DNA from: Candidatus Eiseniibacteriota bacterium
GTDB lineage: Bacteria > ARS69
Assembly: GCA_052390515.1 (NCBI GenBank)
Contig: JBQTGV010000011.1
Span: forward strand, 9,576-73,575
Reading direction: 5' to 3'
Length of the DNA: 64,000 nucleotides
Below are positions 29,441-45,196 of this stretch, one piece after another (within the stretch, counting starts at the first letter, position 1; each line of letters opens with the position of its first letter). The notes under the pieces were generated by a model. That model saw only the letters and a program-made list of their open reading frames with translations, was not told the origin of the DNA and did no database searches. The translations under genes were made by a program, and so were the position numbers.

Positions 29441-30613
29441 ATGCCCCTGCATCGTTCCGCTCTCCTCCCACGCTGGAAGGCTCCCGCGGGTTTGCTCTTC
29501 GCCGTGGTGCTTGCCGGCGGATGCGGCCGTTCCGAAGACCAGGCCCCGGCCGGCCACGGCGCCCCCGGAGCGGCCGCGGCAGGCGAGAGCGGACCCCCCG
29601 GCGAGGGCGATCGCCCCGCGGTCCCGGTCGCCGTGGAGCGCGCCAAGGTCGGTCAGGCCGCCTCCTACTACAGCGCCACCGCCACCCTCGAAGCCGCGAG
29701 CCACGCCGAGATCCTCTCCCGTACCACCGGTGTCGTCCGCGAGATCCAGCGGGAGGAAGGGGACCTGGTTCGCGAAGGTGACACTCTTTTACTTCTGGAA
29801 GACGACGAGGCGAGGCTCCGTGTTCAGCAGGCGGAGGCGAACCATCGGCTGGCGAAGGCGGACTTCGACCGCCGCAGCGCGATGCTGGAGGGCGGGCTCC
29901 TCTCCGCGGGAGAGTTCGAGACGACGCAGGGAACGCTCGAGGTCCGCGAGGCGGAGCTCGGGCTGGCCCGCGTGGCCCTGGCGCACACGCGCATCGTCGC
30001 GCCGTTCACCGGCCGCGTCGTCCGCCGGCACGCCGAGCTCGGCGCGAACGTGAGCGCCGGCGCGCCGCTGTTCGAGATGATGGACGTGACCCCGTTGCTC
30101 GCGCGCATCCACATCCCGGCGAAGCGGATGGGGTACGTCGTCGTCGGACAGCCCATCGAGATCCGCGTGGATTCGATCGACGACACGCTCGACGGGGTCG
30201 TGAGCCTGGTCAGTCCGATCGTCGACGCCGCCACCGGAACCGTGAAGGTCACCGCCGAGATCGCCCGCTATCCGGAGGACACTCGCCCCGGAGACTTCGC
30301 CGAGGTTCGCATCGTCACGGCGAGGCACGACAACGCCGTTCTCGTTCCCAGCACGTCTCTCTTCGAGGAGCAGGGCGAGAGCGTCCTGTTCGTCGTCCAG
30401 GACGGCAAGGCGGCGCGGCGCGTGGTCGAGCAGGGCTTCATCGACGGCGACTTCACCGAAATCGCCCAGGGCGTGAGCGAAGGCGACCTCGTGGTGACCA
30501 AGGGGCAGCGCCAGATCCAGGACGGGGCCGCGGTCAGCATTCTGGAAGGGCCGCCGGACGTGATCGCGAAGTCGGCGGAACCGGAGGCAGGCGCGAAGCG
30601 GGACGCGTCGTGA
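29441..30613 (+). CDS. Efflux RND periplasmic adaptor subunit (lipoprotein), MdtA/AcrA-like
   Basis: Lipobox 'LAGGCG'. Biotinyl/lipoyl hairpin. Coiled coil 'EARLRVQQAEANHRLAKADFDR'. 'RIVAPFTGRV' beta-barrel motif. Confidence 0.9.
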   Translation: MPLHRSALLPRWKAPAGLLFAVVLAGGCGRSEDQAPAGHGAPGAAAAGESGPPGEGDRPAVPVAVERAKVGQAASYYSATATLEAASHAEILSRTTGVVREIQREEGDLVREGDTLLLLEDDEARLRVQQAEANHRLAKADFDRRSAMLEGGLLSAGEFETTQGTLEVREAELGLARVALAHTRIVAPFTGRVVRRHAELGANVSAGAPLFEMMDVTPLLARIHIPAKRMGYVVVGQPIEIRVDSIDDTLDGVVSLVSPIVDAATGTVKVTAEIARYPEDTRPGDFAEVRIVTARHDNAVLVPSTSLFEEQGESVLFVVQDGKAARRVVEQGFIDGDFTEIAQGVSEGDLVVTKGQRQIQDGAAVSILEGPPDVIAKSAEPEAGAKRDAS

Positions 30614-33600: not shown

Positions 33601-33747
33601 GGAACGGCGCTCACGCTGCTCGTCATCCCCGCCGCGTACCTCGTGGTCCCGACGTCCGTCGCCGTGGAACACGAGGAGGATGCGCCGGAGCCGGGGCGAA
33701 TCCCGCGCGTCACCGGAGGCGAGCCTCTCCCGGAGCGTGCCACATGA
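30610..33747 (+). CDS. RND efflux permease (HAE1 family), first of two tandem paralogs (MdtB-like)
   Basis: 1045 aa with 12 TM helices and two large periplasmic loops. 'MISAVVAFAVRRRVTVLMV' is a typical AcrB-family N-terminus. An ATGA overlap with the adaptor gene. Confidence 0.95.
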   Translation: MISAVVAFAVRRRVTVLMVALAVIAFGGVGFSRLPLDLLPDISYPSITIQTEFPDTAPGEVETLVTRPVEEAVGVLRGLQEIHSVTRAERSEVTLQFDWGADMDDLSLEVREKLDRLEFPEEVQAPVVLRYDPALDPIIRLALTGPDDLRLLRRVAEKEVKEDLETREGVAAAVVKGGEEEEIQIEVDQGKLSAIGITPETLGEILATSNINRPGGSLESVENRYLVRTLNEFDSLDEIRELPVNPPGTPPVRLADVATVTWGVKEREEITRVDGRESVEIAVYKEGDANTVAVADAVAEALEWLGEELPKGMELTVLFDQSRFIRQSIDEVQSALWIGGGLAILVLYLFLRSIRPTLIIATSIPLSILFTFMLMYRLDVSLNIMSLGGLTLGIGMLVDASIVVLESIHRRRQEGLPLAKAAIEGTAEVGGAVAATVLTTVAVFFPIVFVEGIAGQLFRDQALTVTFSLLASMVVAVTIIPMFSSIGDANVGTEPSRRKSRPAKSEKATLGRLSQRYERVIRGALARPGLTLTIAGVLFLASLAVIPTLGTELIPVLTEGEFYFEAVLPEGTPLAATDRVIARMDEAARAEPAVEQTFATIGSRLVSGGLALKTRDENLGQLNLVVGDRSDETQELAIADRLREQFSRIPNLVTKLGRPSFFSLKTPVELVFYGENLEELRDYTLGLLPAVREVPGLVDVRASLESGNPELTVQFDRDRLAALGLSIADVSSGLHDRVNGTVVSRFREEDRDIDIRLRNREQDRDTVGDIENLVVAERDGVPVTLAAVADITPARGPAEIHRIQQSRAAIVTGEVAGRSVGAVNEDLEALVLANRPPASITWELAGQNREMERSFASLRFALLLAIFLVYLVMAATFENLVHPFIILFTIPLALVGVVLGLVVGGFTLSVIAMLGAILLAGVVVDNAIILVDAINRFRRDGVDKREAIVAACHVRLRPILMTTLTTILGLVPMAIGFGEGAELRQPLAVVVIFGLAVGTALTLLVIPAAYLVVPTSVAVEHEEDAPEPGRIPRVTGGEPLPERAT

Positions 33748-36700
33748 CGCTTCCCGAACTGGCCATCCGGCGCCCGATCACCGTCCTGATGCTGCTCGTC
33801 TCGCTCGTGGTGATCGGTTCGATCGCGCTGAACCGCCTGCCGCTCGCGTTCCTCCCGGAAGGCGAAGAGCCGCAGATCTGGGTCGTCGTCCCCTACCCGA
33901 ACGCTTCGCCGAAGACCATGGAGCGGTCCATCCTGCGGCCGATCGAGGACGCGCTCGGTTCCATCGGCGGGCTGCAGCACATGTGGTCCACCTGCGACGG
34001 GAACGAGGCGAGGGTCAGCCTCTTCTTCCGGTGGGACGAGGACATGGCCACCAAGCGGGTCGAAGTCCGCGAGCGTCTCGACCGCGTACGCCCAGACCTG
34101 CCCGAGGACGTCGACCAGATCCACATCTCCCGCAACTGGGACGTGGGCCGCACCGGGGAGACCATCCTGGAAGCGCGCATCGCTTCGGGACGGGACCTCA
34201 GCCACGGTTACGAGCTGCTGCACACGCGCATCGTGAAGCCGCTGGAGCGCATCCCCGGCGTCGCGTCGGTGAACCTGGACGGGGTCAACCCGCGCGAGGT
34301 CCGCGTGAATCTGAAGCTCGCCGAGCTGGCCCGCTACAACGTGGACGTCCGCGACGTCATGACCGCCCTGCGCGAGAACAACGAGGACCGCTCGATCGGC
34401 GAGCTGCGCGGGAGCGACCGCGTGCTGATGGTCCGTGTGGACGGTTCGTTCGGGAAGCTTTCGGACATCTCCGACCTCGTCGTCGGAGAGGGCGGGATCC
34501 GGCTCTGCGACGTCGCCGACGTCTCCTACGAGGAACCGCCACTGGAGTACGGGCGGCACCTGGACGGGCAGTTCGCGCTGGGGATCGACGTCGCCCGCGA
34601 GGCCGGCGCGAACACCGTGGAGATCTCCCAGGCGATCAAGGAACGCGTCGCGCAGATGGCCGAGGACCCGGAGCTGGAGGGCGTCAACTTCCTGATCTGG
34701 GAGGATCAGGGCGCGGAGATCCTCAAGACCATGCGCGACCTGCGCAACACCGGGATCATCGGCGCGCTGCTGGCTTCGGTCGTCCTGTACGTGTTCCTTC
34801 GCCGGTTCTCGTCGACGGTCTTCGCCGTGCTGTCCATTCCCTTCTCGCTCATCGTGGCGTGCGGCATCGTCTGGGCGAAGGGTGGCACGCTCAACACGCT
34901 GACGCTGCTGGGCCTGATCGTCGGCGTCGGCATGCTGGTGGACAACGCCATCGTGGTGATGGAGAACATCAATCGCCACCGGGAGAACGGTCTGCCGCCA
35001 CGCCAGGCCGCTCTGATCGGCGCGCGGGAGGTCTCGGTGGCGGTGGTGTGCGGGACGGCCACGTCGGTGATCGTCTTCCTGCCGATCATCTTCAACCGGC
35101 CGGATGAGATGAACCGCTACCTGCGGGAGCTCGGCCTCACCGTCACCTTCACCCTGATCGCCTCGTTGTTCGTGAGCCAGACGCTCATTCCGCTGGCCAT
35201 GAGCCGCTTCGTGCGGGTCAAGAACATGCCCCCCACGCGGTGGATGGTGGCGCTGCAGGACGGCTACAGCAACCTCCTCGCTCTGACCTTGCGGCATCGC
35301 TGGATCGCGCCGGTGGTCGGATTGGCGGTGATCGGTTCCGGCTGGTACCCGTACGGCAAGGTGGACAAGAACTTCGAGGCCAGCGAGGCCGAGATGTTCG
35401 TCAGCATGAACTACCGGATCGACCAGCCGATGTCGCTCGAGCGGAAGGAAGAGCTCGTCACTCGGGTCGAGAGCCTGCTGGAGCCGTATCGGAAGGAGCT
35501 GCACGTCGACTCGATCTACAGTTTCTGGAGCGAGAACTGGGCGATGACCCGCTGCTACATGGAGGACGGGCACACCAACGAGGAGGAGATGAACCGCGTC
35601 CGCCAGAAGCTGCGCGAGGTGGCGCCGGAGATCCCGGGCGTGCGCCTGGAGGTGCAGGACTCCGGCCGGTTCTGGGAACGCAACAGCGGAAAGAGGCTGG
35701 GTTTCCGCCTCTCCGGTCCGGACAGCGAGGTGCTCACGGAGCTGGCGCTGGACGCGCGCCGGCGCCTGGAGACGCTCGACGGGCTCTTCGACTTCTACAC
35801 CACGGCGGAGGGCGGTCGGTACGAGGTGCAGACGCGCATCGACCGGGACCTGGCGCGGGAGTACGGCGTGGGCGTGACGCAGGCCGCCGACGTCGTCGAC
35901 TACACGTTCCGGGGCCGGCGGCTGCCGCGGTACCGGGGGCACGAAGCGGTGGAGGAAGTGGAGATGAGCCTGACGCTCGACGAGCGCGAGGACGAGAGCA
36001 TCGAGCAGCTCAAGAACCTGCCGCTCGTGCAGGGCGGCGCGGAGGATCGCCGCGCGATCCCGCTGGCCACGGTGGCGGACTTCGCCGTGGTGCAGGGCCC
36101 CGAGGACATCCAGCGCGACAATCGCGTGACCGGCGTGTGGATCGGCGCGCGGTTCGAGGAGGACACCGAGGAGGAGCACATGGCTCGGTCGGAAGCCGTC
36201 CTCGACGACATCATCCTCCCGTACGGATACGAGTGGGACCATCACCAGTTCATTCGGCACGAGGAGGAAAGCCAGACGGAGTTCCTGATCACGCTGCTGC
36301 TCGCGCTCGGACTCATCTTCGCGGTGATGGCGGCGCTGTTCGAGTCGATGCGGCAAGCGCTGTCCCTGATGGTGTCGCTGCCCTTCGCCGTGGCCGGCGC
36401 GGCGTGGACGCTGTGGCTCACCGGGACGGACTTCGACCAGCCGGCGTCGGTGGGCCTGCTGCTTCTCCTCGGCATCGTGGTGAACAACGGCATCGTGATG
36501 ATCTCGCACATCAACCACTATCGCCGGGAAGGCATGCCGCGCGAGGCAGCCATGGTGCGCGGCGGCCGCGAGCGCCTGCGGCCCGTGATCATGACCGCCT
36601 TGACCACGCTGCTGGGACTCCTGCCCATGGTCGTGCAGCGGCCGAGCCTCGCCGGCGTCTACTACTACTCGATGGCGCTCGTCATCATGGGCGGTCTCAT

Positions 36701-36845
36701 CATCTCGACGATCCTCACGACGATCCTGCTGCCCACCACAGTCTGCCTGACCGAGGACGCACTCGGTGCGATCAGCCGGTTCAGCCGGTGGCTCGCGCGC
36801 TCGTTCCGAGGAGTCGTGCTGCGCGCGCCGGCGCGGGCGAGCTGA
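33744..36845 (+). CDS. RND efflux permease (HAE1 family), second tandem paralog (MdtC-like)
   Basis: 'MTLPELAIRRPITVLMLLVSLVVIGSIALNRLPLAFLP' and full AcrB-like topology. An ATGA overlap with the preceding RND gene. Confidence 0.95.
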   Translation: MTLPELAIRRPITVLMLLVSLVVIGSIALNRLPLAFLPEGEEPQIWVVVPYPNASPKTMERSILRPIEDALGSIGGLQHMWSTCDGNEARVSLFFRWDEDMATKRVEVRERLDRVRPDLPEDVDQIHISRNWDVGRTGETILEARIASGRDLSHGYELLHTRIVKPLERIPGVASVNLDGVNPREVRVNLKLAELARYNVDVRDVMTALRENNEDRSIGELRGSDRVLMVRVDGSFGKLSDISDLVVGEGGIRLCDVADVSYEEPPLEYGRHLDGQFALGIDVAREAGANTVEISQAIKERVAQMAEDPELEGVNFLIWEDQGAEILKTMRDLRNTGIIGALLASVVLYVFLRRFSSTVFAVLSIPFSLIVACGIVWAKGGTLNTLTLLGLIVGVGMLVDNAIVVMENINRHRENGLPPRQAALIGAREVSVAVVCGTATSVIVFLPIIFNRPDEMNRYLRELGLTVTFTLIASLFVSQTLIPLAMSRFVRVKNMPPTRWMVALQDGYSNLLALTLRHRWIAPVVGLAVIGSGWYPYGKVDKNFEASEAEMFVSMNYRIDQPMSLERKEELVTRVESLLEPYRKELHVDSIYSFWSENWAMTRCYMEDGHTNEEEMNRVRQKLREVAPEIPGVRLEVQDSGRFWERNSGKRLGFRLSGPDSEVLTELALDARRRLETLDGLFDFYTTAEGGRYEVQTRIDRDLAREYGVGVTQAADVVDYTFRGRRLPRYRGHEAVEEVEMSLTLDEREDESIEQLKNLPLVQGGAEDRRAIPLATVADFAVVQGPEDIQRDNRVTGVWIGARFEEDTEEEHMARSEAVLDDIILPYGYEWDHHQFIRHEEESQTEFLITLLLALGLIFAVMAALFESMRQALSLMVSLPFAVAGAAWTLWLTGTDFDQPASVGLLLLLGIVVNNGIVMISHINHYRREGMPREAAMVRGGRERLRPVIMTALTTLLGLLPMVVQRPSLAGVYYYSMALVIMGGLIISTILTTILLPTTVCLTEDALGAISRFSRWLARSFRGVVLRAPARAS

Positions 36846-36983
36846 CGGGGCGGCACCGCTCGCTTCGTGGCGGCTCCGCTCCGCCGTCCGTGGCTCCTGG
36901 GCCGCGACGACGCTCGTGCGAACGAAGCGGAACCTGCCGCCCCCGAGCGAGGCGAGCGGAGCGAGTTCCGCGGTCCGGAAGCT

Positions 36984-37973
36984 CTAGCCGCCGATCGCCG
37001 GCGCGGCCGATCGGCCAGGCGGCACCTGACCGTACGCGCGCCACTCGTCGATCGCCGAGGCGCGGCGAACGCAGCCGATCGTGCAGCGCGCCTCGCAGCC
37101 CTTGCGCTCGAAGAACGCCCGGCGCAGGTCGTCCCTGGTGTAGTCCATGAGACGGATCCCCGGTTCCCCGCGCCGCTGGCTGCAGTAGTTCACGAAGCCG
37201 TCCTCGTCGATGTACAGATAGCGGCTTCCGGCCCGGCACTTCCACGATGACTCACCCTCGAGCAGCATCCGCCGCTCCCACCCTTCGCCGAACTGGTGGA
37301 AGAAACTCTTGCGCAGGCCCTTGCGGATCTCCTGCCAGAACCCGGCGAGGTCCGATCCGATCAGGCCCGGATCGAGCTGGCCGTTCCCGTCGTGCAGCAT
37401 CTGCACGGTCATGTAGAAGCCCATGGACTGGATCTCGGTGACCAGCAGACGCGTCTGTTCCTTGGTGCACGAACCGAGCACCGCGTTCACGTTCGTCGGG
37501 AACTTCGCGTGCTCGGCGAGCAGCGCCAGCTTCGGTTTCAACACGGACCAGGACTTCTGCGACGTCTCGTTCGGCTCGAGGTTGTCGATCGAGATCTGCA
37601 GCAGCGTGAGCCGGGCGTCGTTGAGCAGCTCGATGCGCTTCTTCGTCAGGCAGTAGCCGTTGGTGATCGACGTGCAGATCATGCCTCGCCCGACCGCATG
37701 AGCGATGATCTCGTGCACCTTCGGATGCATCAGCGGCTCGCCGCCGGTGAGCGTGAGCACCAGCGTGCCCAAGTCGGCGAGCCGGTCGAGGCGCGCCTTC
37801 AGCTCGTCCAGGGGAACGGGCGCCGAGACGTGGTCGTACTCGTTGCAGTACCCGCAGGACAGGTTGCAGCGCCGCGTGACCACGAACTGCACGTGCGACG
37901 GCGTGACGTACGGGCGAAGGATGACGCGTGCCGCGCGGGCCAGCGCTCCGGGAAGTGGTTTGGGAACGAGCAT
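36984..37973 (-). CDS. Radical SAM enzyme with a C-terminal SPASM/twitch-like Cys cluster
   Basis: 'VTRRCNLSCGYCNE' is the CxxxCxxC radical-SAM cluster and 'LTGGEPLMHP' is the SAM-binding GGE motif. The C-terminal 'CRAGSRYLYIDEDGFVNYC...GCEARCTIGC' is an auxiliary Fe-S cluster Cys pattern. Start at internal Met 'MLVPKPL'; the 190-aa upstream extension is low complexity and rejected. Coordinates are accurate to about 1 nt. Confidence 0.8.
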   Translation of the reverse strand: MLVPKPLPGALARAARVILRPYVTPSHVQFVVTRRCNLSCGYCNEYDHVSAPVPLDELKARLDRLADLGTLVLTLTGGEPLMHPKVHEIIAHAVGRGMICTSITNGYCLTKKRIELLNDARLTLLQISIDNLEPNETSQKSWSVLKPKLALLAEHAKFPTNVNAVLGSCTKEQTRLLVTEIQSMGFYMTVQMLHDGNGQLDPGLIGSDLAGFWQEIRKGLRKSFFHQFGEGWERRMLLEGESSWKCRAGSRYLYIDEDGFVNYCSQRRGEPGIRLMDYTRDDLRRAFFERKGCEARCTIGCVRRASAIDEWRAYGQVPPGRSAAPAIGG

Positions 37974-38011
37974 CGGCGGATTGTGCTTCGGATCCGTCGA
38001 AGGGGCAAGCG

Positions 38012-39016
38012 CTACCGGAGCGAAAGTTCGAGGCGCCCGCGCGCGGCGAGCGCCTGGGTGGCGATACAGCGCCAGGAGAGAGCGGCGGAACGCGTAGCCG
38101 AGCGGCTGCGCGCGCGGGACAACGCGAGGGCCGGAACGGCCAGGCGAAGCACGTCCGCCGGAGTTCCGCACTCCGTGAGACAGTCCTCCAGAAAGCCGAG
38201 GACCAGCGTGCGAAGCGGTCCGTCGTCGAGGAAGGCGCGGCGGAATCCGCCGGCCGCGTCGTCGCCGCGGAGCTGGCCGAGGCGGACTGCGATGTCGAGC
38301 GCGAACGCGACCGGATCGATCCACGAGAACTGGTGCAGCCGCCCGTGCTCCCAGTCGACAGCGCCGAGCTCGCCCGAGTCCCCGAGGAGATTCCCGGCGC
38401 CGAGGTCCCCGTGCGAAACGGCGGCGAGGCACGTCGTCCCGGCGCGCGCTTCGATGGCGGCGATGAGCGTCTCGATGTCGCGGGTCTTCGCGCCGCCGCC
38501 CTCGCTCTCCAGCGCCGCCAGCGCGGCGCGCAGCACCGGTTCCCACATCGCGGCCTCGCCGGCCTCGAAGAGGCCCGTCGCGCGCCAGATCTGTCCGAGC
38601 CAGTCCCTCGCGTCGTCGAACAGACGGCGGGCGTCGTCGACGTCGGCGAAGGCGCGAAGTTGGTCGGCGAGCGGCTCGCCCGGGATCACGGACTGCACCG
38701 TGAAGAGCCGGTCCCCGTCGTCTTCGAGCAGGAGCGCCCGCGGGAAGCGCCGCCCGGCCAGCCGCGGCGCGGCCTCCTCGAGCTCGCGGAGGAGCCGGTG
38801 CTCCCTCTCCGCGCGGGCACGCGCGGCTCCGCTGCGCGGGAACTTGGCGATCAGCGCCGGATGCGAATCACCGGAGGGAAAGACGCGGACCAGGGCGCGG
38901 CCGGCCCGCCCCATTCCGTCGTCGCAGAGGTGGAAGGAGAGATCTCGCGGCGCCGCTCCGGGGATTCCGAGCTCCCGCCAGCGGCCGAGAACGGCGCCAC
39001 GCAAGCGGTCGATCAT
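38012..39016 (-). CDS. Phosphotransferase-enzyme-family (APH/choline-kinase-like) small-molecule kinase
   Basis: 'VSHGDLGAGNLL' is the Brenner HxDxxxxN catalytic motif and 'VDWEH' is a DxE/D-like motif. Start chosen at 'MIDRLRGAV', giving an ATGA overlap with the upstream methyltransferase. Confidence 0.65.
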   Translation of the reverse strand: MIDRLRGAVLGRWRELGIPGAAPRDLSFHLCDDGMGRAGRALVRVFPSGDSHPALIAKFPRSGAARARAEREHRLLRELEEAAPRLAGRRFPRALLLEDDGDRLFTVQSVIPGEPLADQLRAFADVDDARRLFDDARDWLGQIWRATGLFEAGEAAMWEPVLRAALAALESEGGGAKTRDIETLIAAIEARAGTTCLAAVSHGDLGAGNLLGDSGELGAVDWEHGRLHQFSWIDPVAFALDIAVRLGQLRGDDAAGGFRRAFLDDGPLRTLVLGFLEDCLTECGTPADVLRLAVPALALSRARSRSATRSAALSWRCIATQALAARGRLELSLR

Positions 39017-39876
39017 GCGCCCTTCCCCGAGCGCGCGACGACCGCGAAGTGAGGCACGAGCCGCGCGGCGATTCCACCGCGCAAGCGGTGTCCGAGACGC
39101 GAGCGTTTCGCCAGCCACCAGTCCAGCGCCTCCGGGCCGTCGAGCGGCAGCAGCTCACGCGGCTGATGCGCATCCGGAAACGCGGCGTGGAAGCGGAGCG
39201 CCTCGAATCCGGCCGTGCGGAAGATCTTCGCCCATCCGTCGAGTCCATGAGGGGCGTGACGCGGGGCGGCGTGCTCCCGGCGGCCGGGGAAGAGCGCGCC
39301 GAACCGGTTCGCGACCGGGGCGAAGAGCGCGCCCCCGGGCAGGAGCTTCCGGCGGATGCGGCGGAGCCGCGCGATCTGCTCGCCGTTCGTGCCGCCGAGG
39401 AGGTCTCCGCCGAGCACCGCAAGGTCGAACTTCCCGTCGCGGAAGGGGATCGCTTCGGCGCGGGAGACGACCGCCACGATGTTCGCGCCGCCGATCGACC
39501 GCGCCCGCTGGAGACTGCGCTCCACCACCCCGACCTGCTCGGCTTCGCCGGCGATGACGCGCGTCACGCCTCCCGCGACCGACCCGATGACCAGGACGCG
39601 CACTGCATCGGCGGGAAGCAGGAAGCGCCAATCCGCGTGCGCGTCGTCGTCCTCTTCGGCTGCGTCTCCGCCGGCGGCGTTTGCTGCGGCGTCGGCCGCT
39701 GCTGCGGGCGGTTCCTCCGACGGCACGGCGAAGAGGGGCACTCCGTCCCGGCACTCCCACTCGTCGCCGCAACGCAGGCAAGCGATGCCGGCCTCGTCAC
39801 GGTGGAGCAGGGTGCCGTCGTCGGGGCAGACGAGGTCGGTGGCGCGAGGCAGGGCGGCGAGCTCGGCGAGGGCCAT
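39013..39876 (-). CDS. Methyltransferase with an N-terminal Trm112-like zinc ribbon
   Basis: 'LVCPDDGTLLHRDEAGIACLRCGDEWECRDGVPLF' is a Trm112/DUF343 ribbon. It is followed by an acidic linker and an MT-like core 'VRVLVIGSVAGG'. A GGAGG Shine-Dalgarno sequence lies upstream of the ATG at 39876. Confidence 0.6.
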   Translation of the reverse strand: MALAELAALPRATDLVCPDDGTLLHRDEAGIACLRCGDEWECRDGVPLFAVPSEEPPAAAADAAANAAGGDAAEEDDDAHADWRFLLPADAVRVLVIGSVAGGVTRVIAGEAEQVGVVERSLQRARSIGGANIVAVVSRAEAIPFRDGKFDLAVLGGDLLGGTNGEQIARLRRIRRKLLPGGALFAPVANRFGALFPGRREHAAPRHAPHGLDGWAKIFRTAGFEALRFHAAFPDAHQPRELLPLDGPEALDWWLAKRSRLGHRLRGGIAARLVPHFAVVARSGKGA

Positions 39877-39972
39877 GATTCCTCCGGGTCGACGCTCTTG
39901 CTTCGGCAAACGGGGCGGGCGACTTTCGTCAGGACTTGCGGGGTTTCAGCGGGATCGGCAAGCCCTGGCGGC

Positions 39973-42867
39973 TCAAGGAGTTGAGGCGACCTTCCGCCGC
40001 ACCCGGGCCAGGTCCTCGGCGGCCTGTCGCAGGATCTGGGAATCCGGGTGCCGCGCCCGGCCGGCCGCGAAGATCGAGTCCGCGCGGTCGTGCTCGGAGA
40101 GCTTCACGAGGACGTCGCCGAGCGCGAGGAATCCGTCGTGGCACGACGGATCGAGGCGAAGCGACTCGAGCGCGTCCTCGTGTGCGGGCTCGAGGTCCCG
40201 CGCCCGCGTCCGCACGCGCGCGCGCAACGCGTGGAATTCGGCGCGGCGCGGTTCGCGACGGAGCGCCTCGGAGATCGCGACCTCCGCGGCCTCGAGATCG
40301 CCGGCCTCGAGGTACAGCCGCGCGACGTTCGCCGGCGGATCGCCGTACTCGGGATCCACTTCGGCCGCGCGCCGGTACAGCGCGAGGGCCTCGGCCACGC
40401 CGCCGTGCCGCGCGCGTGCTTCTCCCCTCCCGTTGAGCGCCTGGGAGAGCACGTCGGCGACGGCGGGGTCTCCGCTTCGGAGCCGCCACGCTTCCTCGGC
40501 GGCGGCGAGGCCCGCCTCGCCCTCGCCCGCGCGGAAGGCCAGGCGCGCCTGCGACTCGAGCTCCCGCACGCGCCGTGCCGCCGGAAGCTGCGCAAGCAGA
40601 CCCTCCGGCGCGGCCGCCACGAGCTGCTCGACCCCTCCGGCCGCCGCGTGCAGCCCCGTGTACAGCTCGGGAAGCGTGTCGCGGTAAAGCAGCTTCGGCG
40701 CCTGGAACTCGAGCAGCAGGTTGTCGTCGGTGTTCGCCGCGGCTCCGCCGACGTAACGGTCCAGCGCCTCTCCGGCGAGCAAGCATCGGGATGCGAACGT
40801 CACGAGATCCGGCGTGCCGCTCTCTCGAAGCAGTCGGCGGATGTCCTCGTGCTGCGCAGCTTTCGCCAGGACGCGCTGTGCATCGATGGAGAGAGTCTCG
40901 TCGCCGGCCAGGATGACGAGGTCGCCCCAGCCGGCGCTCCACAGCGTCACCCGGGCGAAGTGCAGGCGGGCGGCGGCGAGCACGCCGCGGAGCGCCTCCG
41001 GGGAGAGTGAGTAACCTTGGAGCCAGGACGCGAAGAGCCCGCCCGGCGAAAGGCCCTCACGACACGCGGCGAAGAACTCCGCGGTGAGCAGCGACGACGC
41101 TCCCGAGACCCATACGTTCGACGGATGCGAGATCACCGCGTCGAAGGTCCGGCCGGACAGCGCGAGGTGGTTGCGTCCGTCTCCCACCACGATGCGCGCG
41201 CGCGGATCGTGCAGCAAGCCGCGATTCGACTCCTCGAACCACGCGGCACCACGCACGACCGACTCGGAGATCTCCACGCACTCCAGCGTCTCCACGCCGG
41301 GATGGCCGCCCGCGGCGGCCGCGGTGATGCCGCTGCCCAGCCCGATGACGAGGATGTCGCGGGGGGCGGGATGCAGGATGACCGGCAGCGCGCCGAGGAA
41401 CACCTGCGTGGCGTAGTCGCCGGTGTTGCTGGCCTCGGTCACGCCGTTCATCTGCATGGTGAGCTCGTGGCCGGAGCGGCGCACCGAGACCGTCGTGGTG
41501 ACGCCCTCCTCGAAGAAGACGAGCTCGGCGCGGTCCGGAGACAGCTCGTCGACGGCGAGACGGCGCATCTCCGACGCCACGGCGAAGCCGCCGCGAGTGA
41601 GCGCGGCCGGGTTCCATTCGGGCAGGAGGAGCGCGCCGGCCGCAGCCGCCGCGGCGATCCCGAGCGCGAAACGCGGCGCACCCCGTCGAACGAGCAGCAG
41701 CACGCTCGTGGCGGCAAGCAGCAGCGAGACGCAGACGATTCCGCCGCGCAGGCCGAGGAGACGGATGAGCACGAATCCGGCGCCCCAGGAACCGAGGATG
41801 GCGCCGAGGGTGTTGGCCGCGTAGAGGTCGCCGACGGTGCGCCCCGTACCCCGGGTTGCACGGTCGATGCCGATGGCGAGAGGAAGCGCCGCGCCGGACA
41901 CCAGCGTCGGCAGCAGCATGGGCAGCGCGGCGATGGCGAAGTTCACGGCGAGCCCGTCGAGCCAGGTGCCACCCGCGCGCGCCGCGAGGCGAAGGAAGAG
42001 CGCCGGCAGCCGGTCGAAGAGCGGCACCGCGGCGAGCGCCAGCAACCCGACCGCGGCGGGAGCCAGCACGAAGAGCCGTGCGGCCGAGGCCGGGCGGCGC
42101 AGGATGCGGGCGGCGAGCGCGCTGCCCCCGGCGATGCCGGCGAGGAAGGTGCTCAGCACGACGGCGAACGCGTACACGGTGGCGCCCAGCGCGAGCGACA
42201 GCGTCCGGGTCCAGAGGACCTCGAGCGCGAGCGCGGCGAAGCCGAGCACGCCGGCGGTCGCGAGGAGAGCGGGGCGCGGTACGTCGGGTCCCGGAGCGTG
42301 CACGGCGGCACCGTCCTCGTCCGGGACGGGACGCGCGGCACGGGAGAGCAGTACCGCGACGAGGCCGACGCCGAGGTTGACGCCCATGGCGAGCCGCAGC
42401 GTCCCGGAGAGGCCGAACGCCGGGAGGAGGGCGAAGCTCGCCGCGACGGTTCCGCACACGGCCCCGAGCGTGTTCGCCGCGTAGAGATGCGCGACGCGCC
42501 GCCGGCCGGTGGACGGTCCCACGTGACTGGCCAGCAGCGGGAGCGTCGCGCCGAGGAGGAACGTGGGCGGCAGCAGCACGAGGACGCCCACGGCGAAACG
42601 CACGCCGGACAGCGCCCAGAACGAGTCGGCGAGCTTCGGGTAGAGCGCGGCGTAGAGCGACTGCGCGCTGCCGAGGAGCGCGGGGACGCACGCGGCGAGG
42701 GCGGCCAGCACGATCTCGGCGATGCCGTAGGCGAGGAGCGGGTTTCGGACGCGGTGCACGACCCGTCCCGCCGCGAACCCTCCCAGGGCGAGGCCGCCCA
42801 TGAAAGCCGAGAGGACCGTGGACACGGCGAGCACGGTCGCGCCGAGCTCGTGCACGAACCAGCGCAC
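39973..42867 (-). CDS. Fused MFS-like polytopic membrane domain, spermidine-synthase-like aminopropyltransferase domain, and C-terminal TPR
   Basis: 964 aa. The N-terminal ~430 aa has about 12 TM helices (MFS-like). The centre 'ILVIGLGSGITAAAA...VETLECVEISESVV...ARIVVGDGRNHL...FDAVISH' is a SpeE-type SAM fold. The C-terminal 'EALALYRRAAEVDPEYGDPPANVARLYLEAGDLEAA' is TPR. Confidence 0.8.
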   Translation of the reverse strand: MRWFVHELGATVLAVSTVLSAFMGGLALGGFAAGRVVHRVRNPLLAYGIAEIVLAALAACVPALLGSAQSLYAALYPKLADSFWALSGVRFAVGVLVLLPPTFLLGATLPLLASHVGPSTGRRRVAHLYAANTLGAVCGTVAASFALLPAFGLSGTLRLAMGVNLGVGLVAVLLSRAARPVPDEDGAAVHAPGPDVPRPALLATAGVLGFAALALEVLWTRTLSLALGATVYAFAVVLSTFLAGIAGGSALAARILRRPASAARLFVLAPAAVGLLALAAVPLFDRLPALFLRLAARAGGTWLDGLAVNFAIAALPMLLPTLVSGAALPLAIGIDRATRGTGRTVGDLYAANTLGAILGSWGAGFVLIRLLGLRGGIVCVSLLLAATSVLLLVRRGAPRFALGIAAAAAAGALLLPEWNPAALTRGGFAVASEMRRLAVDELSPDRAELVFFEEGVTTTVSVRRSGHELTMQMNGVTEASNTGDYATQVFLGALPVILHPAPRDILVIGLGSGITAAAAGGHPGVETLECVEISESVVRGAAWFEESNRGLLHDPRARIVVGDGRNHLALSGRTFDAVISHPSNVWVSGASSLLTAEFFAACREGLSPGGLFASWLQGYSLSPEALRGVLAAARLHFARVTLWSAGWGDLVILAGDETLSIDAQRVLAKAAQHEDIRRLLRESGTPDLVTFASRCLLAGEALDRYVGGAAANTDDNLLLEFQAPKLLYRDTLPELYTGLHAAAGGVEQLVAAAPEGLLAQLPAARRVRELESQARLAFRAGEGEAGLAAAEEAWRLRSGDPAVADVLSQALNGRGEARARHGGVAEALALYRRAAEVDPEYGDPPANVARLYLEAGDLEAAEVAISEALRREPRRAEFHALRARVRTRARDLEPAHEDALESLRLDPSCHDGFLALGDVLVKLSEHDRADSIFAAGRARHPDSQILRQAAEDLARVRRKVASTP

Positions 42868-43003
42868 CCAGACGACCTGGTAGACGAGGCCGGTGGCGCC
42901 GGAGAGGAAGAACAGCAGCAGGATGACGGCCAGCGGACCACCCCCGGCGAACGGACCGGGGGATTATGCGGCTTGCCGCGTGGGGATCAACAGGTCCGGA
43001 CCG

Positions 43004-44422
43004 TCAGGGGCCTCGAAACGTGACCTCGGCGCTTCGCCGTTCCCCGGAAGCGGAGTCGGCGACCGTGATCGTCAGCGGGAACGTGCCCGCGTAGCTGCCG
43101 CGGGGCAGCCGCGCGATCATTGAAGTCGTGACGTCGGCGAGGCTCTCCACCGCGAGCCGCGGCGTGGCCAGTACCAGCTCCGGGCGCGCGTCCCCCGTGC
43201 TCTCGGCTTCGACGAAGTAGACCGCGGAGCTTTCGCCCTTGTTCTGGATGCGGAAGTTGTAGACGTTGCGGATCTCGTCCTCTTCGAGCACGTAGGGCAT
43301 GCCGCGAACCCGGAGGACGTGCACCTCGAACGAGCTGCGCTTCGCCAGCGTGAACCCGAACGCGGCCAGCCCGGCGAGCGCGGCCGCGACATAGGCGATC
43401 GTCCGCGGCCGGATCAGCTTGCGTCGGCCCTCGGAATCGAAGCCGCCTTTCGAGTCGTAACGGATGAGTCCTTTGGGCAATCCCACCTTGTCCATGATCT
43501 CGTCGCAGGCGTCGACGCAGTTCGCGCAGCCGACGCACTCCATCTGCAGGCCGTTGCGGATGTCGATCCCGGTGGGGCACACCGCCACGCAGCGGAAGCA
43601 GTCGATGCAGTCGCCGCCCTCCTCGGCCCTGCGCGAGCGCGGTTCTCCGCGGCCGGAGTCGTACCCGATGATCATCGTGTCGGCGTCGACCAGCGCGGAC
43701 TGCGCGCGGCCGTAGGGGCAGACGATCAGGCAGACCTGCTCGCGGAACCACGCGTAGTCGAAGTACAGGATTGCAGTCCAGATGACGACCCAGAGGAACG
43801 TGGTCCAGTGCTCCGCCGGGCTGCCGCCGAGCCACGCCAGCAGTTCCTTCGGCGGAACGAAGTACGCGACGAAGATGTGCGCGTTGGCGAACGCGAGCGC
43901 CACGAAGACGGCGTGCTTGACCCCCTTCCGCCAGCTCTTGTCCCAGGTCCAGGGTCCCAGGTTGCGCTTGATCCTCGTGTCCCGCGGCCCCTCGATCCGT
44001 CGTTCGATCTTCCGGTACACGCCCTCCAGGAAGACGGTCTGAGGGCACGCGTAGCCGCACCAGATTCGCCCCCAGAGGCTGGTGACGACGAACAGCGCGA
44101 AGCCCAGGCCCGACACGAGGAAGAACAGCAGGTGGAAGTCGTTGTTCGTGAAGGTGTGGCCGGCGAGGTAGGCCGCACGTCCGGGAAGGTCGATGCTCAC
44201 GAGCGGGTGACCGCCGACCTGGATCCAGGGAACGACGGCGTAGATGACGAGCAGCGCGGCGAAGACCAGGTTCTTGCGGCGCTGGAACCGGCCGCGTACG
44301 TCCGCGGGATGGAGGAAGTTCCTGCTTCCGTCCGGGTTGATCGTGTAGACCGTGTCGAGGTCGGGCAGACGCCGCTCGAGCTTGCGGGGCCTGGAGTGCC
44401 GTGGCGGCGACGTCGTACTCAT
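43004..44422 (-). CDS. ccoG: cbb3 oxidase accessory ferredoxin CcoG/FixG
   Basis: 'CGYACPQ', 'CLIVCPYGR', 'CIDCFRCVAVCPTGIDIRNG...CVGCANCVDAC' are multiple 4Fe-4S Cys motifs. Five TM helices. Start at an internal Met overlapping the ccoP stop (ATGA). The upstream 172-aa extension lies in ccoP's alternate frame and is rejected. Confidence 0.85.
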   Translation of the reverse strand: MSTTSPPRHSRPRKLERRLPDLDTVYTINPDGSRNFLHPADVRGRFQRRKNLVFAALLVIYAVVPWIQVGGHPLVSIDLPGRAAYLAGHTFTNNDFHLLFFLVSGLGFALFVVTSLWGRIWCGYACPQTVFLEGVYRKIERRIEGPRDTRIKRNLGPWTWDKSWRKGVKHAVFVALAFANAHIFVAYFVPPKELLAWLGGSPAEHWTTFLWVVIWTAILYFDYAWFREQVCLIVCPYGRAQSALVDADTMIIGYDSGRGEPRSRRAEEGGDCIDCFRCVAVCPTGIDIRNGLQMECVGCANCVDACDEIMDKVGLPKGLIRYDSKGGFDSEGRRKLIRPRTIAYVAAALAGLAAFGFTLAKRSSFEVHVLRVRGMPYVLEEDEIRNVYNFRIQNKGESSAVYFVEAESTGDARPELVLATPRLAVESLADVTTSMIARLPRGSYAGTFPLTITVADSASGERRSAEVTFRGP

Positions 44423-45012
44423 CCGGTTCCTTGCTGCGTCCATCCCGGCGCTGCGTTCCCCGCGGCGTCCATTCCCTGCGGTGCTTTCCCGGAGAGGTTC
44501 TTGTCGCGGAGCGTCAGCAGGTACGCGACGACGTCCTGGATGCGCTGCGGCCCGAGCTGGTTCATCCACGCCACCATTCCCTTGTCGGGCACGCCGTTCG
44601 TCACGGTTCGATGGATCTGCAGCGGTGAGCCGCCGTGGATCCAGTACTCGTCCGTCAGATTCGGACCGATGTCGCCGGAGGCGTCGGGCCGGTGGCAGGT
44701 CGCGCAGATCTGGCCGAACACGGCGCCACCTGCGGCGACCCTCTCCGGCACCTGCGACACGAGCAGCAGCGTCTCGTCGGAAAGCTCCTGCCCGGACATC
44801 CTGGCGAGCTGGAGCTCGGCGGCGGCTGCCATCTCCGCGGCGTACGCGTCCCGGGGGAGGTGGCCCAGGCGCCAGGTGTGGAAGAACAGCCAGTACCCGA
44901 CGGCGAAGACGATCGCGCCGTACAGCGTCCACAGCCACCAGTTGGGGAGACGGTTGTCGAACTCGTGGATCCCGTCGTACTCGTGCTCGCGGAGCTTGTC
45001 CTGATCCGCCAT
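44419..45012 (-). CDS. ccoP: cbb3 oxidase subunit III CcoP, monoheme variant
   Basis: 'EYDGIHEFDNRLPNWWLWT' is the CcoP/FixP N-terminal signature plus TM. There is a single 'CATCH' heme motif (typical CcoP is diheme). Confidence 0.8.
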   Translation of the reverse strand: MADQDKLREHEYDGIHEFDNRLPNWWLWTLYGAIVFAVGYWLFFHTWRLGHLPRDAYAAEMAAAAELQLARMSGQELSDETLLLVSQVPERVAAGGAVFGQICATCHRPDASGDIGPNLTDEYWIHGGSPLQIHRTVTNGVPDKGMVAWMNQLGPQRIQDVVAYLLTLRDKNLSGKAPQGMDAAGNAAPGWTQQGTG

Positions 45013-45013
45013 G

Positions 45014-45196
45014 TCAGACCTCCTCCCGCCCGTCCGCTTCGAGAGGCAGACGCGCCACGTGGTCCATACGCTCGTGCCGGCGGAGACCTCGGATCTCGCG
45101 GACCAGCACCACGGTGAACGCGACGAGGAAGATCGCGAGCGCGACGAGCGGCCACGCCAGCAGATCGCTCTTCGCGAACCAGCTCTCGAACATCAT
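45014..45196 (-). CDS. ccoQ: cbb3 oxidase small subunit CcoQ/FixQ-like (60 aa)
   Basis: 'MMFESWFAKSDLLAWPLVALAIFLVAFTVVLV' is a single-TM peptide in CcoQ position. The ATGA overlap with the ccoNO stop. Confidence 0.6.
   Translation of the reverse strand: MMFESWFAKSDLLAWPLVALAIFLVAFTVVLVREIRGLRRHERMDHVARLPLEADGREEV

What the first reader, a model, noticed from the sequence alone, without database searches (positions are those of the whole stretch)
36984..42867. Operon of fused MFS/spermidine-synthase/TPR, Trm112-ribbon methyltransferase, APH-family kinase and radical-SAM/SPASM enzyme
Four co-directional minus-strand genes. The middle pair share an ATGA overlap; the other gaps are 38 and 96 nt.
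- A 964-aa fusion of a 12-TM MFS-like domain, an aminopropyltransferase fold and TPR. The 'fused MFS/spermidine synthase' family is widespread but functionally uncharacterised.
- A methyltransferase with an N-terminal Trm112-type zinc ribbon.
- A small-molecule kinase carrying the Brenner motif 'HGDLGAGN'.
- A radical-SAM enzyme with CxxxCxxC plus an auxiliary-cluster Cys-rich C-terminus.

This is a coherent tailoring toolkit: alkyl/aminopropyl transfer, methylation, phosphorylation and radical chemistry. It would suit a modified polyamine, a nucleoside-like compound or a peptide metabolite. No precursor peptide is visible. I cannot match it to a described pathway.
Basis: partly seen in the sequence, partly recalled or inferred. 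Interest (0 to 1): 0.7.

Follow-up and report, generated by a model that had tools for sequence, protein, structure and literature searches.

The report
Clade-specific gene string, not a pathway
The four genes are real and sit as described, but only three of them travel together in related bacteria. Two of those three lack conserved catalytic sites, and the radical-SAM gene is an independent, widespread enzyme that is a neighbour only in this one lineage.

Summary
**Observation: confirmed.** Four minus-strand genes lie at 36984-42867 with the stated gaps (96 nt, ATGA overlap, 38 nt), domains and motifs. The contig is from a Candidatus Eiseniibacteriota MAG.

**Interpretation (a coherent four-enzyme tailoring toolkit): weakened.**
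- **Radical-SAM gene.** It belongs to a very large, highly conserved orphan family, about 60% identical in Myxococcota. In 83 other genomic loci this family never sits within 10 kb of the other three genes. There it lies beside GT4 glycosyltransferases, a flippase, inositol-phosphate synthase, CDP-alcohol transferase, LptF/G or LolA genes.
- **The recurring unit is a trio.** It comprises the MFS/spermidine-synthase-like/TPR membrane protein plus a translationally coupled methyltransferase-fold and kinase-fold pair. The pair is fused into one protein in two relatives. The trio occurs without the radical-SAM gene in two other lineages.
- **Catalytic motifs are poorly kept.**
  - Only 4 of 19 kinase-fold relatives keep the full HGD/N/D set.
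  - The methyltransferase glycine loop is not conserved.
  - The spermidine-synthase-like domain lacks the aminopropyltransferase aspartates.
- **The radical-SAM enzyme is twitch/SPASM-like.** Its best structural match is BlsE. It is not an anSME, and no sulfatase or precursor peptide is visible.

**Verdict:** a clade-specific string of uncharacterised genes, of modest interest.

The parts
42963..42990 (-). Promoter-like element TTGATC-16 nt-CATAAT, between the ccoG stop (43004) and the MFS gene
   Evidence: It is the only sigma-70-like match in 36500-43400, against 0.1 expected from shuffles. The element is identical in the orthologous locus L086, while the flanking intergenic bases differ.
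39973..42933 (-). Fused multi-TM (MFS-like) / spermidine-synthase-like / TPR membrane protein. Annotated from GTG 42867 (964 aa). The probable true start is an in-frame CTG at 42933 or ATC at 42924.
   Evidence: - Family assignment comes from Pfam and NCBIfam.
- The in-frame upstream peptide PLAVILLLFFLSGATGLVYQVVW forms a first TM helix. It is conserved in L086, P0131, P0135, P0138 and P0140. L086 has GTA where the window has the annotated GTG.
- Catalytic motifs differ from true spermidine synthases: GLGSG instead of GGGDG, and SHPSN instead of D(S/C)xDP.
39013..39876 (-). Class-I methyltransferase-fold protein with an N-terminal three-Cys ribbon-like motif. Its SAM-binding motif I is degenerate.
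   Evidence: - Pfam hits are marginal and the N-terminus matched no Pfam family, Trm112 included.
- Motif I reads GSVAGG here, GFAEEE in L084 and AGRDDV in L088. The beta-2 acidic residue is not conserved.
- It is always followed by the kinase-fold gene with a 4-nt overlap, and is fused to it in P0256 and P0257.
38012..39016 (-). APH/protein-kinase-like fold protein. It carries the full HGD...N...D motif in this window but belongs to a small family in which those residues are mostly not conserved.
   Evidence: - PF01636 scores 45.5 bits.
- Only 13 cluster representatives out of 1.84 billion reach E <= 1e-30.
- Catalytic Asp is present in 10/19 members, Asn in 6/19 and the DFG-like Asp in 13/19. 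All three are present in 4/19.
- The AF2 model has pLDDT below 50 across residues 194-233, and the fold match to APH(3') is weak, with TM 0.36-0.44.
36984..37973 (-). Radical-SAM enzyme with a CxxxCxxC core and a five-Cys twitch/SPASM-like C-terminal domain. It belongs to a large, highly conserved orphan family.
   Evidence: - 7896 homologues were found among 8000 scored candidates. Identity is 60-67% to Myxococcota and others, and 42-50% to Acidobacteriota and Acetobacteraceae.
- 95 columns are invariant in 24 sequences.
- Every NCBIfam hit is far below its cut-off.
- The AF2 model has pLDDT 77. The best PDB match is BlsE 7vob at TM 0.63.

Best explanation
The interval holds two separable things that are neighbours only in one sub-lineage of Candidatus Eiseniibacteriota.

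**(1) A three-gene module with its own promoter-like site just after ccoG.** It comprises:
- a polytopic membrane protein whose Rossmann domain looks like spermidine synthase but has lost the aminopropyl-transfer aspartates while keeping a nucleotide/SAM-type binding loop, followed by TPR repeats;
- a translationally coupled pair of soluble proteins, one with a methyltransferase fold and one with an APH/kinase fold.

I infer that the pair works as one physical unit. It is fused into a single polypeptide in some bacteria. Its catalytic motifs are not conserved across relatives. So it more likely acts as a binding, regulatory or accessory partner of the membrane protein than as two sequential tailoring enzymes. 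The window's own kinase copy still has a complete catalytic motif and could be active.

**(2) A stand-alone twitch/SPASM-type radical-SAM enzyme from a very large, strongly conserved family.** By inference it uses 5'-deoxyadenosyl-radical H-abstraction, with one auxiliary Fe-S cluster, on a small sugar-, cyclitol- or glycolipid-type substrate in cell-envelope biogenesis.

**Shown versus inferred.** Shown: gene structure, folds, motif states, co-occurrence pattern, the fusion, and structural neighbours. Inferred: complex formation, non-catalytic roles, the envelope substrate, and co-transcription.
For: **Trio without the radical-SAM gene.**
- L090/L091: MFS 63%, MT 42%, APH 48% identity.
- L088: MFS 52%, MT 32%, APH 39% identity.

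**MT-APH pair behaves as one unit.**
- The two genes overlap by 4 nt in the window, L084, L086, L088, L090 and the P0123 contig.
- They are fused in P0256 (640 aa) and P0257 (650 aa).

**Radical-SAM family is independent of the trio.**
- 0/83 loci carry MFS, MT or APH homologues, even when distant family members are used as queries.
- A GT4 gene lies within two genes in 13 loci spanning Polyangiales, Alphaproteobacteria and Acidobacteriota.
- Polysacc_synt_3, CDP-OH_P_transf, Inos-1-P_synth, Gly_transf_sug and LptF/G occur nearby in Alphaproteobacteria.
- LolA is adjacent in 36 Acidobacteriota loci.
- CDP-OH_P_transf, DAG kinase and Kdo genes flank it in L001.

**Unequal conservation within the same pair of genomes.** Between the window and L084, the radical-SAM protein is 78% identical, against 59% (MFS), 40% (MT) and 45% (APH).

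**Motif states**.

**Structure.** The best matches are small-molecule or peptide twitch/SPASM enzymes, led by BlsE.

**Promoter-like site** is conserved in L086.
Against: - Within the window's clade the four genes are tightly packed: 38 nt separates the kinase and radical-SAM genes, with no terminator-like site. This order is kept down to 78% radical-SAM identity (L084).
- In a rearranged relative, the P0125 contig, a radical-SAM gene still lies about 0.4 kb from the MT-APH pair. A functional link in this clade therefore cannot be excluded.
- The window's kinase has every canonical catalytic residue.
- Loss of canonical motifs does not prove loss of activity.
- The radical-SAM neighbourhoods elsewhere are heterogeneous, and the sample is dominated by Acidobacteriota.
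- No experiment exists for any of these families.
Confidence: 0.55

Rival explanations
1. All four genes encode active enzymes of one pathway that tailors a small metabolite (a modified polyamine, nucleoside-like compound or peptide) by alkyl/aminopropyl transfer, methylation, phosphorylation and radical chemistry.
For: - The genes are co-directional and tightly spaced, with the order conserved in close relatives.
- The window's kinase has the full HGD/N/D motif.
- The radical-SAM fold resembles small-molecule enzymes such as BlsE, MoaA and DesII.
Against: - Co-occurrence fails outside one clade.
- The aminopropyltransferase aspartates are absent.
- MT motif I and the kinase catalytic residues are not conserved among orthologues.
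- The radical-SAM protein is far more conserved than its supposed partners.
- No core scaffold-forming enzyme and no precursor peptide are present.
Confidence: 0.15
2. The module is an accessory of cbb3-type cytochrome oxidase biogenesis, because in this clade it directly follows ccoNO-ccoQ-ccoP-ccoG.
For: - The cco genes and ccoG lie immediately upstream on the same strand.
- The same holds in the P0123 contig.
- The MT-APH pair still follows ccoG in the rearranged P0125 contig.
- Another radical-SAM homologue sits next to CcmF/H in L002.
Against: - The trio in L088 and L090 is not near cco genes.
- A separate promoter-like site lies between ccoG and the MFS gene.
- No known cbb3 assembly factor has these folds (my own knowledge).
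Confidence: 0.07
3. The radical-SAM enzyme is a RiPP maturase (SPASM-type), and its precursor peptide is unannotated or encoded elsewhere.
For: - The N-terminal region is similar to PqqE, AlbA, SkfB and SuiB.
- A 44-codon ORF lies upstream of the homologue in L084.
Against: - The window has only 38 nt between the kinase and radical-SAM genes, so the L084 ORF has no counterpart.
- About 60% identity across phyla, with single-copy housekeeping-type neighbourhoods, is atypical for RiPP maturases.
- Only five auxiliary Cys are present and no SPASM Pfam hit was returned.
- No conserved small ORF was seen beside the homologues.
Confidence: 0.03
4. The radical-SAM and kinase pair is a prokaryotic-viperin-like antiviral system.
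For: PADLOC pVip models, including 'viperins associated with kinases', hit the radical-SAM core at 61-69 bits.
Against: - The hits cover only profile positions 2-115.
- The NCBIfam viperin model scores 58.5 bits against a cut-off of 180.
- The five conserved C-terminal Cys do not fit a viperin, which to my knowledge has no auxiliary cluster.
- The family is conserved at about 60% identity across phyla in envelope-type neighbourhoods, and 0/83 homologues lie next to a relative of this kinase-fold gene.
Confidence: 0.03
5. The radical-SAM enzyme is an anaerobic sulfatase-maturating enzyme.
For: It has the general SPASM-superfamily fold. anSMEcpe ranks 14th among PDB matches at TM 0.53.
Against: - No anSME model appears among the 25 best NCBIfam hits, all of which are far below their cut-offs.
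- It has five rather than seven or eight auxiliary Cys.
- tblastn with one sulfatase-family protein found no sulfatase in the 64-kb window.
- No sulfatase is conserved among the neighbours of the 83 homologues.
Confidence: 0.01

Closest known systems
NCBIfam NF037959 'fused MFS/spermidine synthase' (uncharacterised subfamily); canonical SpeE aminopropyltransferases such as E. coli SpeE, PDB 3o4f
   Same: - The model score is above its cut-off (96 against 40).
- It has a polytopic N-terminal domain plus a Rossmann domain that aligns with SpeE over about 145 residues (E 3e-17).
- The G-x-G-x-G loop, the beta-2 Glu and the GDG motif are retained.
   Different: - GGGDG is replaced by GLGSG. To my knowledge the lost Asp is the one that selects decarboxylated SAM.
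- The D(S/C)xDP amine-binding and catalytic motif is replaced by S(H/Q/E)PSN.
- It carries a long TPR tail.
- All SpeE equivalog models score far below their cut-offs.
BlsE (cytosylglucuronate decarboxylase, PDB 7vob) and other twitch/SPASM radical-SAM enzymes (MoaA, SkfB, PqqE, SuiB)
   Same: - It has the CxxxCxxC core and a partial TIM barrel.
- Its C-terminal beta-hairpin carries a C-x12-G-x4-C motif plus further Cys.
- BlsE is the best match, with TM 0.63 and E 8e-12.
   Different: - Identity is only 22%.
- TIGR04466 scores 38.7 bits against a cut-off of 400.
- The Cys pattern is distinctive: C246, C264, then C293-x3-C297-x3-C301.
- The family has its own invariant motifs, including EPNExSQKSW, HDxxGQxDPGL and GEGWE.
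- The substrate is unknown.
APH family (PF01636), e.g. APH(3')-IIa, PDB 1nd4
   Same: - The Pfam hit is above its cut-off.
- The beta-3 Lys is near-conserved (16/19 members) and the alpha-C Glu is invariant (19/19).
- The window's copy has HGDxxxxN and a downstream Asp.
   Different: - The structural match is weak, with TM 0.36-0.44.
- A profile of the family finds no solved-structure relative by sequence at E <= 1.
- Catalytic residues are lost in most family members.
- It is always paired with, or fused to, a methyltransferase-fold protein.
Class-I SAM-dependent methyltransferases (Methyltransf_11/25); Trm112-type zinc ribbons
   Same: - Overall Rossmann-fold signatures are present: the FDLAVL and PGG motifs.
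- The best PDB relative is a UbiE-related methyltransferase, 2avn.
- The N-terminal motif VCPxDG...CxxCG...(D)G(V/I)P(L/V)F resembles Trm112-type ribbons. This resemblance is my own reading of the motif.
   Different: - The motif I glycine loop and the beta-2 acidic residue are not conserved.
- The Pfam scores sit at or below the cut-offs.
- There is no Trm112 Pfam hit, and only three Cys are present.
- The ribbon is absent altogether in L088.

Membership tests
Anaerobic sulfatase-maturating enzymes (anSME) | Family-level HMM match, or clear clustering with anSME | tested here: not met
   No anSME model is among the 25 best NCBIfam hits, and all hits are far below their cut-offs. anSMEcpe ranks 14th in the fold search at TM 0.53.
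Anaerobic sulfatase-maturating enzymes (anSME) | Full SPASM domain with seven or eight Cys for two auxiliary clusters | tested here: not met
   Only five invariant C-terminal Cys are present. No SPASM Pfam hit was returned.
Anaerobic sulfatase-maturating enzymes (anSME) | Sulfatase substrate gene nearby | tested here: not met
   tblastn with one sulfatase-family protein found nothing in the 64-kb window. Sequence outside the window was not seen. No sulfatase is conserved near the 83 homologues.
Twitch/SPASM radical-SAM subgroup | CxxxCxxC core plus a C-terminal Cys-rich beta-hairpin (C-x9-15-G-x4-C) for at least one auxiliary cluster | tested here: met
   C36/C40/C43 form the core. C246-x12-G-x4-C264 forms the hairpin, followed by C293/C297/C301, all invariant. 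Structural neighbours are BlsE, SkfB, PqqE, SuiB and MoaA. Cluster binding itself cannot be tested here.
Spermidine synthase / aminopropyltransferase | GGGDG Asp and D(S/C)xDP catalytic aspartates | tested here: not met
   The motifs read GLGSG and SHPSN in the window, and the replacement is conserved in orthologues.
Spermidine synthase / aminopropyltransferase | Equivalog HMM above its cut-off | tested here: not met
   PRK03612 scores 109 bits against a cut-off of 472. TIGR00417 scores 64.5 against 249.55.
Fused MFS/spermidine synthase (NF037959) | Subfamily HMM above its cut-off | tested here: met
   It scores 96.2 bits against a cut-off of 40. A hydropathy scan gave 20 partly overlapping peaks, which I read as about 12-14 hydrophobic segments.
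APH-family small-molecule kinase | Pfam PF01636 above its gathering score | tested here: met
   It scores 45.5 bits against a cut-off of 23.2.
APH-family small-molecule kinase | Conserved catalytic HxDxxxxN and metal-binding Asp | tested here: inconclusive
   The residues are present in the window's protein. Across 19 family members the Asp is present in 10, the Asn in 6 and the second Asp in 13, with all three together in only 4.
Class-I SAM-dependent methyltransferase | Motif I glycine-rich SAM loop and an acidic residue at the end of beta-2 | tested here: not met
   The loop reads GSVAGG, GSIAEG, GFAEEE, GFAEDG, AGRDDV, ETGSGR and ESPGHR in seven members. The beta-2 residue is E, E, D, V, R, T and T.
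Trm112-type zinc ribbon | Pfam Trm112p match and a four-Cys ribbon | tested here: not met
   No Pfam family matched at E <= 1. Three Cys are conserved where the N-terminus exists, and the segment is absent in L088.
RiPP biosynthetic cluster | Precursor peptide gene adjacent to the maturase | tested here: not met
   The gaps of 38 and 96 nt leave no room. The 44-codon ORF in L084 has no counterpart.
Prokaryotic viperin (pVip) | Full-length family HMM match | tested here: not met
   NF038283 scores 58.5 bits against a cut-off of 180. The PADLOC hits cover only the first ~110 profile positions.

The most novel reading that the evidence does not exclude
The methyltransferase-fold and kinase-fold pair (sometimes one fused protein), together with the spermidine-synthase-like TPR membrane protein, is an undescribed three-component membrane module built largely from catalytically degenerate enzyme folds.

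In the window's clade the kinase copy keeps a full catalytic motif and sits 38 nt from a deeply conserved sugar/cyclitol-type radical-SAM gene. There the module may have been joined to that enzyme to form a real envelope-glycolipid or polyamine-lipid modification pathway.
Probability: 0.2. Interest if true: 0.6.

Novelty: new variant of a known kind. Interest (0 to 1): 0.35.

Why it matters
**Two uncharacterised items are worth recording.**

1. **An orphan radical-SAM family.** It is very large, with thousands of sequences, and about 60% identical across phyla. It has five invariant auxiliary Cys. Its genomic company is GT4 glycosyltransferases, a flippase, inositol-phosphate synthase, CDP-alcohol transferase, LptF/G and LolA. 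That points to an unknown step in envelope glycolipid or polysaccharide biogenesis, and the family has members in named genera such as Gluconacetobacter, Acidisoma and Nitrospirillum.
2. **A recurring trio.** A spermidine-synthase-like membrane protein travels with a coupled or fused methyltransferase-like/kinase-like pair whose active-site residues drift. This is a possible pseudoenzyme complex.

**The main practical lesson is negative.** The apparent four-enzyme 'toolkit' is not a conserved pathway. It should not be treated as a biosynthetic gene cluster without experimental support.

Tried and rejected
- **Metagenome scan with the kinase alignment.** 600 pattern matches, none a relative. 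The patterns were too degenerate in high-GC DNA.
- **Look-up of P0152, an Eiseniibacteriota MFS orthologue.** It was not on record.
- **Contigs of P0002, P0123 and P0125.** These came without DNA, so the 289-aa and 767-aa unknown neighbours could not be compared.
- **Second metagenome scan with the MFS alignment.** It gave 80 loci. The three closest are cut at the gene end. The rest are distant paralogues at 27-38% identity with no partner genes.
- **Literature searches.** None found a paper on these families or on this gene combination. Searches covered the fused MFS/spermidine synthase name, radical SAM with inositol-phosphate synthase and CDP-alcohol transferase, and radical SAM in Acidobacteria and Myxococcota lipid work.
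- **Tes/Mss/HpnH-type lipid radical-SAM enzymes.** I considered these and set them aside. HpnH TIGR03470 scores 38 bits against a cut-off of 225. Tes is a much longer protein, from my own knowledge.
- **Rfam scan of 36000-45500.** Nothing found.
- **PADLOC.** Only generic radical-SAM-core and methyltransferase-fold hits.
- **Search of the window for envelope genes.** No inositol-phosphate synthase, CDP-alcohol transferase, GT4 or LolA homologues of the kind that flank the radical-SAM gene elsewhere. The only hit was an unrelated ABC ATPase at about 15.7-16.4 kb.
- **Profile search of PDB sequences with the kinase family.** No hit.

Full report
**Source and layout**

The window is about 70% G+C. 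The radical-SAM protein is 100% identical to a protein annotated in a 129,768-bp contig of a Candidatus Eiseniibacteriota MAG. In such DNA most long ORFs are spurious, so I used third-position GC to pick frames.

Four minus-strand genes stand out:

| Gene | Coordinates | Length |
|---|---|---|
| MFS/SpdS/TPR | 39973..42867 | 964 aa |
| Methyltransferase-fold | 39013..39876 | 287 aa |
| APH/kinase-fold | 38012..39016 | 334 aa |
| Radical SAM | 36984..37973 | 329 aa |

- Upstream on the same strand are a DsbD-like protein, a CcoI-like P-type ATPase, a fused CcoN-CcoO, CcoP and CcoG/FixG. Two short ORFs (53 and 59 aa) lie in the positions where ccoS and ccoQ would be expected, but they matched no Pfam family.
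- Downstream and convergent are a membrane-fusion protein and two RND pumps.

**Domains**

Pfam and NCBIfam confirm the fold assignments:
- Spermine_synth, TPR and NF037959 'fused MFS/spermidine synthase' above its cut-off;
- APH above its cut-off;
- Radical_SAM.

Other points:
- The methyltransferase hits sit at or below the gathering scores.
- No Pfam family, Trm112 included, matches its N-terminus even at E <= 1.
- A VCPxDG...CxxCG motif with three Cys is conserved.
- The radical-SAM protein matches 60 NCBIfam models through its N-terminal core only. All are far below their cut-offs.

**The radical-SAM gene is an independent, widely conserved gene**

Family size and conservation:
- 7896 of the 8000 scored candidates are homologues.
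- Identity stays at 59-67% in Myxococcota and other phyla.
- 95 columns are invariant among 24 sequences. These include CxxxCxxC and five C-terminal Cys: C246-x12-G-x4-C264, then C293-x3-C297-x3-C301.

Co-occurrence:
- A scan of one genome per species returned 80 loci, mainly Acidobacteriota and Acetobacteraceae at 41-50% identity, with a few at 56-63%. Three more loci came from direct look-ups.
- None of these 83 loci has a homologue of the MFS, methyltransferase-fold or kinase-fold gene within 10 kb. This held for the window's proteins and for distant family members used as queries.

What lies beside it instead:
- A GT4 glycosyltransferase within two genes in 13 loci, spanning Polyangiales, several Alphaproteobacteria, two Acidobacteriota and an unclassified genome.
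- In Alphaproteobacteria: Polysacc_synt_3 flippase, CDP-alcohol phosphatidyltransferase, myo-inositol-1-phosphate synthase, a DXD glycosyltransferase and LptF/LptG.
- In 36 Acidobacteriota loci: a LolA-like gene directly upstream.
- In L001: CDP-OH_P_transf, a DAG-kinase-like gene and the Kdo genes.

Structure:
- The AF2 model (pLDDT 77) best matches BlsE at TM 0.63.
- SkfB, PqqE, SuiB, MoaA, viperin, AbmM, anSME and DesII follow.
- This places the protein in the twitch/SPASM group without a specific family.
- It is not an anSME. A tblastn with one sulfatase-family query found no sulfatase in the window.

**What does travel together**

The kinase-fold protein has only eight word-search homologues. 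A full HMMER scan found 13 cluster representatives at E <= 1e-30 among 1.84 billion.

Close relatives keep the window's order. These are the P0122 locus (L086), the P0123 contig and L084:
- The order is ccoG, then MFS, MT, APH, radical SAM, then RND pumps. ccoG is visible only in the P0123 contig; L084 and L086 are cut at or just before the MFS gene, and no RND gene is identified at the end of L084.
- L084's identities to the window are 59%, 40%, 45% and 78% respectively. The radical-SAM gene is therefore under much stronger constraint than its neighbours.

Other arrangements:
- In the P0125 contig the MT-APH pair follows ccoG. A radical-SAM gene lies convergent about 0.4 kb away.
- In the P0002 contig (radical SAM 81% identical) the three partners are not seen in the window's arrangement. 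The genes on the radical-SAM gene's 5' side are divergent RND-efflux genes, and an unidentified 289-aa gene lies convergent on the other side.
- The trio occurs without the radical-SAM gene in L090/L091. There the MFS protein carries an extra arylsulfotransferase-like C-terminus.
- It also occurs without it in L088.
- MFS orthologues at about 50% identity in L087 and L089 have none of the partners.
- Nor do 80 more distant MFS/SpdS loci, 40 of which have at least 3 kb of downstream DNA.

The MT-APH pair:
- The two genes overlap by four bases in every locus where both genes could be inspected, except the P0125 contig, where they are 3 nt apart.
- They are fused into single proteins of 640 and 650 aa in P0256 and P0257.
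- The conserved unit is therefore the pair, usually with the MFS/SpdS/TPR protein. It is not the four-gene set.

**Are these working enzymes?**

Spermidine-synthase-like domain:
- It aligns with E. coli SpeE.
- It has GLGSG where SpeE has GGGDG.
- It has S(H/Q/E)PSN where SpeE has DCTDP.
- The replacements are conserved among orthologues, so the site is under selection for something other than aminopropyl transfer.

Kinase-fold family, 19 members:

| Residue | Conserved in |
|---|---|
| alpha-C Glu and the 'HG' dipeptide | 19/19 |
| beta-3 Lys | 16/19 |
| Catalytic Asp | 10/19 |
| Metal-binding Asn | 6/19 |
| DFG-like Asp | 13/19 |
| All three catalytic residues together | 4/19, including the window |

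- P0123, 81% identical to the window's protein, has lost two of the three.
- The AF2 model is poor across residues 194-233, which include the catalytic loop, and resembles APH(3') only weakly.

Methyltransferase-fold family:
- The motif I glycine loop and the beta-2 acidic residue are not conserved.
- The invariant positions lie elsewhere: DWRFLLP, RVL and PLD.

These patterns suggest that catalysis is not the conserved function of the pair. This is an inference, not a demonstration, and the window's kinase copy could still be active.

**Expression signals**

- The only sigma-70-like match in 36500-43400 is TTGATC-16-CATAAT at 42990..42963. It lies between the ccoG stop and the MFS gene and is identical in L086.
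- No terminator-like site separates the four genes. Co-transcription in this clade is plausible but untested.
- The annotated GTG start of the MFS gene is probably wrong.
  - A conserved in-frame hydrophobic segment lies upstream.
  - L086 has GTA at that codon.
  - Orthologues begin further upstream.
  - An in-frame CTG at 42933, 7 nt after a GGGGG run, or ATC at 42924, is the likely start.
- No Rfam family matches.

**Comparison with known systems**

- No paper in the searchable library describes these families or this combination.
- The closest named entities are NF037959 (uncharacterised), BlsE-type twitch radical-SAM enzymes, APH-family kinases and class-I methyltransferases.
- Each is matched at fold level, with defining catalytic or family-level features missing or unconserved. 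The membership table gives details.
- PADLOC gives only generic hits: the pVip core and a methyltransferase fold.

**Verdict**

- The interpretation as a coherent four-step tailoring pathway is not sustained beyond one narrow clade, and the motif analysis weakens it further.
- The most likely picture is a clade-specific juxtaposition, possibly an operon. It joins an uncharacterised three-gene membrane module with an independently conserved, probably envelope-related radical-SAM enzyme.
- Interest is modest at 0.35.
- The orphan radical-SAM family and the coupled or fused methyltransferase-like/kinase-like pair are the parts worth following.

Noticed in passing
window 42867-42990 (minus strand): The annotated GTG start of the MFS gene cuts off a conserved in-frame first TM helix, and the orthologue L086 has GTA at that codon. 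The likely start is a non-canonical CTG (42933) or ATC (42924) after a G-rich stretch. A promoter-like TTGATC-16-CATAAT element just upstream is identical in L086.
   Followed up: partly
window 45193-47742 (minus strand): CcoN (COX1) and CcoO (FixO) of the cbb3 oxidase are fused into one 849-aa protein. The same fusion appears in the related P0123 contig.
   Followed up: no
L011, L026, L029, L040, L042, L046, L049, L050, L060, L078; also L002, L004: Homologues of the radical-SAM gene sit in clusters with two GT4 glycosyltransferases, a Polysacc_synt_3 flippase, CDP-alcohol phosphatidyltransferase, myo-inositol-1-phosphate synthase, a DXD glycosyltransferase and LptF/LptG. This suggests an undescribed inositol-containing glycolipid or polysaccharide pathway that uses this orphan enzyme.
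   Followed up: partly
36 Acidobacteriota loci, e.g. L012, L025, L074: A conserved co-directional block lies immediately upstream of the radical-SAM homologue. It comprises a lipoprotein, an ABC ATPase, a small membrane protein and a LolA-like protein.
   Followed up: partly
P0256 (640 aa) and P0257 (650 aa), from the representative search: These are single polypeptides that join the ribbon/methyltransferase-fold protein to the kinase-fold protein. In both, the kinase catalytic Asp is replaced by Ser.
   Followed up: partly
L090 4194-8483; also L091 and L092: Here the MFS/SpdS/TPR orthologue (63% identical) carries an extra C-terminal arylsulfotransferase-like domain, giving 1429 aa. It is followed by the MT-APH pair but no radical-SAM gene.
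   Followed up: no
L088 13792-14805: An intact kinase-fold gene, with its GTG start overlapping the stop of the methyltransferase-like gene, was not called by the source annotation. The methyltransferase-like protein here (220 aa) lacks the N-terminal ribbon.
   Followed up: partly
L087 3503-6061 and 8076-9851: In a 4.7-Mb genome the MFS/SpdS/TPR orthologue has no MT/APH partners. It lies near a second MFS/SpdS paralogue (852 aa) and a sulfatase-family (PF00884) membrane protein.
   Followed up: no
window 29441-36845 (plus strand): A membrane-fusion protein and two tandem RND (AcrB-type) pumps converge on the radical-SAM gene. The same arrangement is kept in the P0123 contig, and L086 ends in a convergent RND fragment.
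   Followed up: no
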